From Escherichia coli (GTDB lineage: Bacteria > Pseudomonadota > Gammaproteobacteria > Enterobacterales > Enterobacteriaceae): a DNA stretch of 64,000 bases. The stretch lies in NCBI RefSeq assembly GCF_029227855.1, contig NZ_CP074356.1. One strand, given 5' to 3'. Positions within the stretch are counted from its first letter, which is position 1. Each line of letters starts with the position of its first letter. This document shows positions 9,900 to 10,610 of the stretch, piece after piece. Below the pieces are notes generated by a model, which was not told the DNA's origin, searched no databases, and saw only the letters and a program-made list of their open reading frames with translations. The translations under genes were made by a program, and so were the position numbers.

Positions 9900-10610
9900 A
9901 TAATAAATATCCTCCGGCATAGCCGGAGGTTTTTCAAATGCGCCTATAAGGCTCTCTTACCAGCCGCGCCCTAACAGGCGCACACGATCTGACATTTGCA
10001 TCCAACTTCGTTACTTACGGCCCGTAAACGGGCTGCCCGGATAGGGAATCGATAACTGCTCTCCCATTTTATCCTCTTCAAGCTGGTGCTTTATGTAATC
10101 CTGTATCTTCGCCGTGTTCTTACCCACCGTATCGACGTAGTACCCTCTGCACCAGAACTCCCTGTTCCTGTATTTGAATTTCAAATCACCAAACTGCTCG
10201 TAAAGCATCAGACTGCTTTTCCCTTTCAGATATCCCATAAAGCCGGATACGCTCATTTTGGGCGGGATCTCCACAAGCATATGGATATGATCTGCACAGC
10301 ATTCAGCTTCCAGAATCCGTACACTTTTCCACTCACACAGCTTTCTCAAAATACTGCCTATTGCTCTACGCTTCTCTCTGTAGAACACCTGTCTTCGGTA
10401 TTTTGGCGCAAAAACTATGTGATATTTACAGTTCCATCGGGTGTGCGCTAAGCTCTTTTCGTTCCCCATTGGGACCCCCTTTTGATTTCTTGTTTGACAC
10501 TTGCAGTTGCCAGACCGCAAGGTGTTTTAACAAATCAAAAGGGGTTTTAATAACTGGCTTAAAGCTGAAAGCTTTCCGGAACCCCCAGCCTAGCTGGGGG
10601 TTTTCTGTGC
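9900..10610. mobile_element. IS200-like insertion sequence (IS200/IS605 family, about 0.7 kb); boundaries approximate
   Basis: Y1 transposase gene flanked by two similar subterminal hairpins each followed by a T-run (cctccggcatagccggagg 9912-9930; cccccagcctagctggggg 10582-10600) and a long RBS-occluding inverted repeat (about 10475-10555); absent from this locus in K-12. Confidence 0.8.
10011..10469 (-). CDS. tnpA: IS200-type Y1 (HUH) transposase TnpA
   Basis: MGNEKSLAHTRWNCKYHIVFAPKYRRQVFY...HIHMLVEIPPK... with the HxH motif and catalytic Tyr region; very close to Salmonella IS200 TnpA by recall. Confidence 0.9.
   Translation of the reverse strand: MGNEKSLAHTRWNCKYHIVFAPKYRRQVFYREKRRAIGSILRKLCEWKSVRILEAECCADHIHMLVEIPPKMSVSGFMGYLKGKSSLMLYEQFGDLKFKYRNREFWCRGYYVDTVGKNTAKIQDYIKHQLEEDKMGEQLSIPYPGSPFTGRK

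What the first reader, a model, noticed from the sequence alone, without database searches (positions are those of the whole stretch)
9900..10610. IS200-like element inserted immediately beyond the malM terminator
A complete-looking IS200 (tnpA plus subterminal hairpins and the RBS-sequestering inverted repeat) sits within a few nucleotides of the malK-lamB-malM terminator hairpin, between malM and yjbI. This is an insertion relative to K-12. IS200 transposes rarely, so copies are useful strain/lineage markers, and its position next to the AT-rich yjbI region makes this a small plasticity zone.
Basis: partly seen in the sequence, partly recalled or inferred. Interest (0 to 1): 0.5.

Follow-up and report, generated by a model that had tools for sequence, protein, structure and literature searches.

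The report
Intact IS200C after the malM terminator
This is an ordinary, complete copy of the known 711-bp insertion sequence IS200C, which landed right after the T-run of the malM transcription terminator; that is the usual landing spot for this family, not a special plasticity zone.

Summary
Window 9902-10612 (minus strand) is a complete 711-bp IS200C.

- It is 100% identical to copies at other loci in many E. coli genomes.
- It encodes an intact 152-aa Y1/HUH transposase (H61-I-H63, Y125, Q129).
- It has the left-end terminator hairpin, the Shine-Dalgarno-sequestering 5'UTR stem-loop (Rfam STnc490, 146 bits) and the right-end hairpin.
- K-12 and BL21 have an empty site. The element is a simple insertion with no target duplication, placed directly after the seven Ts of the malM terminator. 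That terminator stays intact.

Only 5 of 5426 complete E. coli genomes carry it at this site. Those five fall into two flank backgrounds, so the same nucleotide was hit at least twice. This weakens its use as a lineage marker.

The location is explained by target choice, not by the AT-rich yjbI neighbourhood. All 9 other E. coli IS200C sites, and 81 of 91 IS200-group left flanks from diverse bacteria, show a GC hairpin plus T tail. [quoted passage not shown]

The element is already known and of low interest. The terminator targeting is a modest side-finding that is partly in the literature.

The parts
9902..10612 (-). Complete IS200C insertion sequence, 711 bp. The left end is at 10612 and the right end at 9902.
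   Evidence: The filled site is 711 bp longer than the empty sites in BL21 and K-12. The element is 100% identical over all 711 bp to copies at lacZ-lacY, pbp4b-yfeX, ydcO-ydcL and other loci. It is the only copy in the window.
10011..10469 (-). tnpA, a 152-aa Y1 (HUH) transposase with H61-I-H63, catalytic Y125 and Q129.
   Evidence: Pfam Y1_Tnp matches positions 2-121 of 121, E=4e-38. NCBIfam NF033573 scores 147.7 bits. PDB relatives are 2ec2, 2f5g and 2a6m (IS608 TnpA). Y125F is reported as the catalytically dead mutant in PMC4513863. PGAP annotates the identical protein as WP_000526135.1.
10580..10602 (-). Left-end subterminal hairpin (IS nt 11-33), AACCCCCAGC-TAG-GCTGGGGGTT. It is the presumed TnpA binding site, and the literature describes it as a bidirectional terminator that shields tnpA from outside transcription.
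   Evidence: It folds. It forms the first helix of the Rfam STnc490 match. The role of nt 12-34 is stated in PMC4513863. Its 17-mer core is conserved in more than 120 loci from diverse bacteria.
10476..10544 (-). [quoted passage not shown]
   Evidence: The RNA fold gives -67 kcal/mol, z=-5.17, with 0 of 200 shuffles as good. The Rfam structure agrees. The published element spans nt 69-138.
10479..10602 (-). Rfam RF01405 (STnc490) match covering the full model. The match is on the tnpA-sense strand, so it corresponds to the 5'tnpA RNA region.
   Evidence: 146.1 bits against a gathering score of 56, E=3.5e-31, model positions 1-124 of 124.
10461..10550 (+). [quoted passage not shown] This is inferred and was not tested here.
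   Evidence: The position is transferred from the description in PMC4513863. The simple promoter scan found no sigma-70 match here.
9902..9929 (-). Right end: the hairpin CCTCCGGC-TAT-GCCGGAGG (9911-9929) plus the 9-nt tail ATATTTATT (9902-9910).
   Evidence: DNA fold z=-4.9. The scan calls it terminator-like on both strands. The tail is identical in all 10 E. coli copies and in Y. pestis IS1541, whatever the flank.
10613..10639 (-). The target: the malM (malK-lamB-malM) intrinsic terminator, hairpin GGTGCGTC-TCCT-GGCGCACC (10620-10639) plus T7 (10613-10619). It is intact after the insertion.
   Evidence: The terminator scan finds it. The same hairpin plus T7 is present in six empty sites. The insertion lies directly 3' of the seventh T.
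10672..11592 (-). malM, the upstream neighbour, co-oriented with tnpA.
   Evidence: ORF listing. PGAP annotation of the same segment in Ec-2939 and K-12.
8152..9732 (-). yjbI ('SopA family protein'), the downstream neighbour. It is frameshifted here as in K-12. Its start lies 170 bp beyond the IS right end.
   Evidence: No single ORF spans this range; it is split into 442-aa and 64-aa pieces. It is annotated as a pseudogene or frameshifted in K-12, BL21 and Ec-2939.

Best explanation
Window 9902-10612 is an intact copy of IS200C, a member of the IS200 group of the IS200/IS605 family, and it looks transposition-competent.

By analogy with IS608 (inferred), its Y1/HUH transposase moved one DNA strand, the tnpA-sense 'top' strand, as a circle. 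It pasted that strand into single-stranded DNA on the lagging-strand template, directly 3' of the T-run of the malM terminator. There was no target duplication.

The landing site is typical of the family, which inserts a few nucleotides after a GC-rich hairpin followed by a T-rich tail. That is the same architecture as the element's own right end: a hairpin followed by ATATTTATT. Both IS hairpins are preceded by a GAAAA(A) run. By analogy with the IS608 guide tetranucleotides, this run probably pairs with the T-rich cleavage or target site (inferred).

The malM terminator stays intact and the next gene is a pseudogene, so the insertion is probably neutral. Expression of tnpA is expected to be held down in two ways described for Salmonella IS200. 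The left-end terminator hairpin blocks incoming transcription. The 5'UTR stem-loop hides the ribosome binding site, together with the antisense RNA art200.
For: Identity and intactness:
- The element is 100% identical over 711 bp to IS200C at other loci.
- It matches Y1_Tnp over full length and NF033573.
- HUH, Y125 and Q129 are present. Homology to IS608 TnpA structures is clear.
- Rfam STnc490 matches its full model, and the hairpins and the Shine-Dalgarno-sequestering stem fold well.

Simple insertion with no target duplication:
- K-12 and BL21 empty sites differ from the filled site by 711 bp.
- Joining the flanks of the lac and brnQ-proY copies reproduces the K-12 sequence exactly.
- Y. 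pestis IS1541 always ends ...TTTATT, even where the left flank ends in CT.

Target rule:
- All 9 other E. coli IS200C sites have a GC hairpin plus T tail directly before the left end.
- 81 of 91 unique IS200-group left flanks from diverse genomes show the same. The comparison figures are 1.8% of random 45-mers and 20% of random 45-mers with a T-rich tail. Mean DNA folding energy is -10.9 against -2.7 kcal/mol.
- Tandem copies use the right end of a first copy as the target.
- At least two independent hits landed on the same nucleotide at malM.

Lagging-strand template:
- GC skew of the window's + strand is negative throughout.
- tnpA lies on the leading-strand-sequence strand at all 8 sites that could be placed on the K-12 map. 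This includes the lac site, where it opposes the host genes.

Published mechanism: IS608; IS200 regulation.
Against: - No transposition assay was possible, so activity of this particular copy is inferred only from its identity to many other copies.
- The hairpin-plus-T-tail pattern could be produced partly by selection. Insertions just past terminators are harmless and survive. The random controls do not remove that filter.
- The guide-pairing idea (A-run with T-run) cannot be tested by covariation, because both partners are invariant in the sample.
- The nine E. coli comparison sites were whichever place the search tool listed for each record. They are not a random sample.
- oriC and dif positions used for the replichore assignment come from my own knowledge. 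Synteny of the other strains with K-12 is assumed.
- Two of the five malM-site copies carry one extra T at the right junction (a 712-bp insert), which the simple model does not predict.
Confidence: 0.85

Rival explanations
1. The element is a real IS200C, but its place after the terminator reflects only a loose preference for T-rich DNA plus survival of harmless insertions. On this view TnpA does not recognise the hairpin.
For: [quoted passage not shown] In IS608 the target is recognised through a 4-nt sequence only.
Against: Among random 45-mers with a T-rich tail, only 20% have a hairpin, against about 89-93% of real left flanks. At the lac site the tail is only GGTTATT next to a hairpin, while a T5 run 10 nt further on is unused. 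In the malM-yjbI spacer a T6-AT run at about 9868-9873, with no hairpin, is unused in all five filled genomes. The right end of a resident copy, a hairpin with a T-rich tail, is itself reused as a target.
Confidence: 0.2
2. The copy is an immobile, ancestral relic kept for its small RNA (the 5'tnpA/STnc490 region) rather than a mobile element. This is the view proposed for Salmonella IS200.
For: [quoted passage not shown] The full STnc490 match is present here.
Against: The site is empty in K-12, BL21 and all but 5 of 5426 genomes. Copies 100% identical to this one sit at many different loci, up to 35 places per genome. The same site was hit in two flank backgrounds. The transposase reading frame and its catalytic residues are intact.
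Confidence: 0.05
3. The malM-yjbI spacer is a general plasticity hot spot because of its AT-rich, horizontally acquired-looking neighbour yjbI, and IS200 is just one of many visitors.
For: GC content is 0.433 in 8001-12000 against about 0.50-0.55 elsewhere in the window. One genome has an IS1A and one has an IS2 in or near the 5' end of yjbI.
Against: 5415 of 5426 genomes match the segment, and the spread of rows shows a constant junction of about 990 bp (988-991). The IS1 and IS2 insertions are not at the terminator junction, which is intact in those strains. All five IS200C copies sit at one nucleotide next to the hairpin.
Confidence: 0.08
4. The source strain did not gain the element by transposition in its own lineage. 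It received it with flanking DNA by homologous recombination from a strain that already had it.
For: Ec-2939 shares the filled site with flanks 99.8% identical over 1.7 kb, yet is only 98.7% identical over 25 kb. This suggests a mosaic history for the region.
Against: Nothing argues directly against it. It concerns only the route into this strain, not what the element is. The second flank background still requires a separate transposition event.
Confidence: 0.25

Closest known systems
IS200C of E. coli (ISfinder name as used by NCBI PGAP; IS200 group, IS200/IS605 family)
   Same: It is 100% identical over 711 bp to annotated IS200C copies. The TnpA protein is identical to WP_000526135.1.
   Different: Only the location differs. 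This site is occupied in 5 of 5426 complete genomes. ISfinder itself could not be queried.
Salmonella IS200 (707 bp), with its tnpA 5'UTR stem-loop, art200/STnc490 and 5'tnpA sRNA
   Same: The layout is the same: left-end terminator hairpin at nt 11-33 (published 12-34), stem-loop at nt 69-137 (published 69-138), Shine-Dalgarno sequence AAGGGGGU, and Y125.
   Different: This copy is 711 bp and from E. coli. Expression of art200 or 5'tnpA here is untested. In E. coli the element shows clear presence/absence polymorphism, whereas the Salmonella literature describes it as dormant.
IS1541 of Yersinia pestis (IS200 group)
   Same: It has the same left-end hairpin 17-mer, the same right-end hairpin and ATATTTATT tail, and the same hairpin-plus-T-run left flanks and tandem copies.
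   Different: It is 710 bp, and its left end starts GTGCCCAG rather than GTGCACAG.
IS608 (Helicobacter pylori) and ISDra2, the mechanistic models for the IS200/IS605 family
   Same: They share the Y1/HUH TnpA fold family (2a6m and 2xm3 hits), subterminal hairpins, absence of target duplication, insertion 3' of a short sequence that abuts the left end, and orientation matching the lagging-strand template.
   Different: IS608 carries tnpB and targets TTAC with no need for a target hairpin. IS200C has tnpA only, and its sites are a T-rich tail that follows a hairpin.
Bacterial class C group II introns, which insert after intrinsic terminators (recalled from memory, not checked here)
   Same: The target is also a terminator-like stem-loop followed by a T-run.
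   Different: They are an unrelated kind of element (ribozyme plus reverse transcriptase). The resemblance concerns target choice only.

Membership tests
IS200/IS605 family, IS200 group (IS200C) | Encodes a Y1 (single-tyrosine) HUH transposase of the TnpA_IS200 type | tested here: met
   Pfam PF01797 matches full length, E=4e-38. NCBIfam NF033573 (equivalog) scores 147.7 bits against a cut-off of 55. PDB hits are 2ec2, 2f5g, 2a6m and 2xm3.
IS200/IS605 family, IS200 group (IS200C) | Catalytic residues: an HUH motif and a C-terminal Tyr, followed by Gln four residues later | tested here: met
   H61-I-H63, Y125 and Q129 are present. Y125 is the published catalytic residue. YIKHQ aligns to YIEEQ of the solved homologues.
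IS200/IS605 family, IS200 group (IS200C) | No terminal inverted repeats; subterminal hairpins at both ends | tested here: met
   The ends read GTGCACAGAAAA... and ...ATATTTATT, which are not inverted repeats. The hairpins lie at 10580-10602 and 9911-9929.
IS200/IS605 family, IS200 group (IS200C) | No target-site duplication; simple insertion next to a short target that abuts the left end | tested here: met
   Empty and filled sites differ by exactly the element. The lac and brnQ flanks rejoin to give the K-12 sequence. The terminal TT is constant even where the left flank ends in CT (L121).
IS200/IS605 family, IS200 group (IS200C) | tnpA only (no tnpB), about 700 bp | tested here: met
   The element is 711 bp. 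Its other long ORFs overlap tnpA on either strand or run out past the element's ends, and none was tested further.
IS200/IS605 family, IS200 group (IS200C) | Near identity to the ISfinder IS200C reference sequence | not testable with these tools
   ISfinder is not available. As a proxy, the element is 100% identical to copies that PGAP names 'IS200C family'.
IS200/IS605 family, IS200 group (IS200C) | Single-strand 'peel and paste' transposition with top-strand bias for the lagging-strand template | tested here: inconclusive
   Orientation fits at 8 of 8 mapped sites, and the window's GC skew agrees. There is no biochemical test. oriC and dif positions come from my own knowledge.
Salmonella-type IS200 regulatory module (STnc490 / 5'UTR stem-loop) | [quoted passage not shown] | tested here: met
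   Rfam RF01405 scores 146 bits over the full model. The fold has z=-5.2, with AAGGGGGU paired.
Salmonella-type IS200 regulatory module (STnc490 / 5'UTR stem-loop) | Expression of the antisense RNA art200 | not testable with these tools
   No expression data are available. The simple promoter scan found no match on the + strand here.
REP-associated tyrosine transposase (RAYT) | Meets the NCBIfam NF047646 cut-off and is flanked by REP sequences | tested here: not met
   The score is 32.2 bits against a cut-off of 80. The flanks are IS ends, not REPs.

The most novel reading that the evidence does not exclude
IS200-group transposases actively recognise intrinsic terminators, meaning a GC hairpin plus T tail on the lagging-strand template, because these mimic the element's own right end. 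If so, insertion is structure-directed. That would explain three things: why IS200 is nearly harmless, why it forms tandem copies, and why the same terminators (malM here, hit at least twice) are struck repeatedly in unrelated lineages. [quoted passage not shown] I found no statement that the terminator hairpin is the target determinant.
Probability: 0.5. Interest if true: 0.45.

Novelty: already known. Interest (0 to 1): 0.22.

Why it matters
The copy itself matters little. It is a known element in a harmless place, and at best a rare marker of the strain.

- **Use in typing.** The same nucleotide was hit independently in at least two E. coli backgrounds, so sharing this site does not prove shared descent.
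- **Mobility.** IS200C is clearly mobile in natural E. coli, unlike the textbook picture of a dormant IS200.
- **Target rule.** Insertion just after a terminator hairpin and T-run, in the orientation of the lagging-strand template, predicts where new copies will appear. It also explains why they are tolerated. Biochemical confirmation would extend the IS608 target-recognition model to structured targets.

Tried and rejected
- **Target duplication.** A 709-bp element with a 2-bp TT duplication would fit the malM site alone. I rejected it because related copies end in ...TTTATT whatever the left flank (L121 ends in CT), and because the lac and brnQ flanks rejoin exactly to the K-12 sequence.
- **Longer T-run in some backgrounds.** I tested whether a T8 target explains the extra T in Ec-2939 and ECOCN22. 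All six empty sites sampled have T7, so this remains unexplained.
- **RAYT.** Rejected: 32 bits against a cut-off of 80.
- **art200 promoter.** The consensus scan found nothing at the expected place, which is uninformative.
- **Source strain.** The best complete genome is only 98.7% identical over 25 kb. The number of IS200 copies in the source genome therefore cannot be counted. The window holds one copy.
- **Older primary papers.** Work on IS1541 and IS200 insertion sites (Odaert 1998; Beuzon and Casadesus 1997) is not held in the library. I cannot rule out that terminator targeting was already noted there. Four literature searches found only the preprint on enrichment and the 'T-rich region' table.
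- **Covariation test.** A test of guide against target was not possible, because both are invariant across the sample.

Full report
**What is there**

Comparison with BL21 and K-12 gives the empty site, written here on the window + strand...GGAAGCAT-AAAAAAA-GGTGCGCC... In the window the same flanks read ...GCAT|AATAAATATCC...CTGTGCAC|AAAAAAAGGTGCGCC.... Across E. coli the filled and empty segments differ by 711 bp, 1701 against 990.

A formal 2-nt ambiguity arises from shared A/T residues. It is resolved in favour of 9902-10612 because related copies always end ...ATATTTATT whatever precedes their left end. K-12 has 228 bp between malM and yjbI. The window has 939 bp, which is 228 + 711.

**Identity**

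- The 711 bp are 100% identical to copies annotated 'IS200/IS605-like element IS200C family transposase' at unrelated loci, including lacZ-lacY, pbp4b-yfeX, ydcO-ydcL, proY-brnQ, yieF-adeP, ybfA and rnd-fadD.
- The single gene (10011-10469, minus strand) encodes 152 aa. It matches Pfam Y1_Tnp end to end (E=4e-38) and the NCBIfam equivalog NF033573 (147.7 bits against a cut-off of 55).
- It aligns to solved IS200-type and IS608 transposases.
- It carries H61-I-H63, Y125 and Q129. Y125 is the residue whose Y125F change gives the catalytically dead IS200 TnpA (PMC4513863).
- The REP-associated transposase model scores well below its cut-off.

**Anatomy in IS coordinates (left end = window 10612)**

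- The left-end hairpin occupies nt 11-33.
- A long stem-loop at nt 69-137 pairs the Shine-Dalgarno sequence AAGGGGGU. Its RNA fold gives z=-5.2.
- The ATG is at nt 144 and the stop codon ends at nt 602.
- The right-end hairpin occupies nt 684-702, followed by the 9-nt tail ATATTTATT.
- This is the published layout of Salmonella IS200: terminator hairpin at nt 12-34, stem-loop at nt 69-138, and antisense art200.
- Rfam STnc490 matches its full model at 146 bits.
- The termini are not inverted repeats.

**Surroundings**

On the tnpA strand the order is malM, then its terminator (GGTGCGTC-TCCT-GGCGCACC plus T7), then the IS left end, then the IS right end. A further 170 bp leads to the start of yjbI, which is frameshifted here as in K-12. 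The terminator keeps its hairpin and all seven Ts, so malM should be unaffected. The downstream gene is already a pseudogene. The insertion is probably neutral (inference).

**Distribution**

- 3096 of 5426 complete E. coli genomes have some IS200C-like sequence, and 2063 have a near full-length copy. The number of places per genome runs from 1 to 35, with a median of 1.
- Only 5 genomes carry a copy at the malM site.
- One of them, Ec-2939, shares the window's flank type. The other four (B19429, PCP06238, ECOCN22 and O139:H1 P15-25) share a different flank type.
- Between the two types the flanks differ by 40-45 of about 504 nt on the left and 13-14 of 488 nt on the right. The IS copies differ by only 0-6 of 709.
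- TUM1226 has an empty site with a left flank identical to that of P15-25.
- The same nucleotide was therefore hit at least twice. As a lineage marker the site is rare but liable to recur.
- The other genomes sampled across the ranking keep the plain junction of about 990 bp (988-991). One genome has an IS1A and one an IS2 in the 5' end of yjbI, away from the terminator. This does not amount to a plasticity zone.

**Why this spot**

- All nine other E. coli IS200C sites I fetched show a GC-rich hairpin followed by 5-7 T-rich nucleotides directly 5' of the left end.
They came from Vibrio, Yersinia pestis (IS1541), Brenneria, Dickeya, Edwardsiella, Oxalobacter, Mailhella/Desulfovibrio, Bacillota and other taxa.
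- Of 91 unique left flanks with the canonical spacer, 81 (89%) have a hairpin plus T-rich tail. The figure is 1.8% for random 45-mers from the same loci and 20% for random 45-mers chosen to have a T-rich tail. Mean DNA folding energy is -10.9 against -2.7 kcal/mol.
- At the lac site the tail next to the hairpin is only GGTTATT, while a T5 run 10 nt further on is unused.
- In the malM-yjbI spacer a T6-AT run without a hairpin (about 9868-9873) is unused in all five filled genomes.
- Tandem copies in E. coli MRSN346595 and in Y. pestis show that the right end of a resident copy, itself a hairpin with a T-rich tail, serves as a target.

The malM terminator is thus a textbook target for this group, not a coincidence and not a consequence of the AT-rich yjbI.

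**Mechanism**

For IS608, the family model, the following is established (PMC5934647; PMC5027513):
- TnpA binds the subterminal hairpins on the top strand.
- The cleavage and target sequences are read by base pairing with a 'guide' tetranucleotide 5' of each hairpin foot.
[quoted passage not shown] A-run/T-run guide pairing is therefore a reasonable inference, but it is untested.

The orientation evidence is as follows:
- GC skew of the window's + strand is negative in essentially every 4-kb block. The minus strand, which carries tnpA, therefore has the leading-strand sequence and is the lagging-strand template.
- Placing eight E. coli sites on the K-12 map gives tnpA on '+' at 4.25, 0.36, 0.42, 0.73 and 1.50 Mb, and on '-' at 1.89, 2.55 and 3.90 Mb.
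- With oriC near 3.93 Mb and dif near 1.59 Mb (my own knowledge), all 8 fit the rule. The one-sided probability is about 0.004.
- This includes the lac site, where tnpA opposes the host operon.

What is shown: identity, intactness, a simple insertion, the hairpin-plus-T context, and the orientation pattern. What is inferred: single-strand transposition of this copy, guide pairing, hairpin recognition as opposed to survival bias, and neutrality.

**Comparison with the literature**

- The element itself is already known.
- A table in PMC6963479 notes that IS200C copies lie 'within a T-rich region'.
- I found no explicit statement that the external terminator hairpin is the target determinant. 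However, older primary papers were not available.
- A 2025 paper calls IS200 apparently immobile. The E. coli data here show recent mobility: identical copies at many polymorphic sites, and repeated hits on one site.

**Verdict**

It is weak on 'rarely transposes, so a good marker' and on 'plasticity zone'. This is an already known element of low interest. The structure-directed choice of terminators is the only part that might repay further work.

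Noticed in passing
L001 3511-3540 and L006 1011-1040 (right-end junction of the malM-site copies): Ec-2939 and ECOCN22 have one extra A (a T on the tnpA strand) at the right junction: GCATAAA|TAAATA against GCATAA|TAAATA. This gives a 712-bp insert. All six empty sites sampled have T7, so a longer target does not explain it. Possible causes are register slippage of cleavage within the homopolymer, or a homopolymer sequencing error.
   Followed up: partly
L140 5140-5170 and 6900-6925 (K-12 ydcL-ydcO spacer) compared with L130: K-12's IS609, another IS200/IS605-family element, sits in the T-run of the ydcL terminator. That is within 1-2 nt of where IS200C sits in strain EBJ003, and in the same orientation relative to ydcL.
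   Followed up: partly
window 10479-10602 (-): The Rfam STnc490 model matches only the tnpA-sense strand. The literature describes STnc490/art200 as the RNA antisense to the tnpA 5'UTR. The Rfam hit therefore marks the 5'UTR structure and is not evidence for the antisense RNA.
   Followed up: no
L134 (E. coli MRSN346595, ybfA site); L113, L114, L116 (Yersinia pestis): These are tandem head-to-tail IS200-group copies. In E. coli the two copies are separated by ATT. In Y. pestis the right end ...ATATTTATT abuts the next left end directly.
   Followed up: partly
window 11653-11822: Two REP/BIME-like palindromic units lie between lamB and malM. Rfam naRNA4 scores 78.7 bits at 11752-11822, and there is a weaker hit at 11653-11731.
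   Followed up: no
window 1-25000: The best match to any of the 5426 complete E. coli genomes is only 98.7% (Ec-2939, in 2 pieces spanning 25.8 kb). Yet the 1.7 kb around the IS is 99.8% identical to K-12-like strains. The source strain is not in the collection, and some part of this 25 kb is unusually divergent or rearranged.
   Followed up: no
window 9729-9920 (-): A 63-aa ORF starts at an ATG inside the IS right-end hairpin loop and runs out into the yjbI upstream region. It is probably a chance ORF created by the insertion.
   Followed up: no
L146 (strain YF-1) and L147 (strain E3): An IS1A and an IS2 respectively interrupt the 5' end of yjbI, close to the malM-yjbI spacer. The terminator junction itself is intact in both strains.
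   Followed up: partly
L008-L127 (genome-contig scan): The 17-nt core of the IS200 left-end hairpin (CCCCAGCTAGGCTGGGG) is conserved exactly in elements from Proteobacteria, Desulfobacterota, Bacillota, Elusimicrobia, Saccharibacteria and Leptospira MAGs. Many of these copies lie at contig ends, as expected for multicopy repeats. A Ruminococcus subgroup (L093-L101) has a different, constant sequence 5' of the hairpin and may be another kind of element.
   Followed up: no
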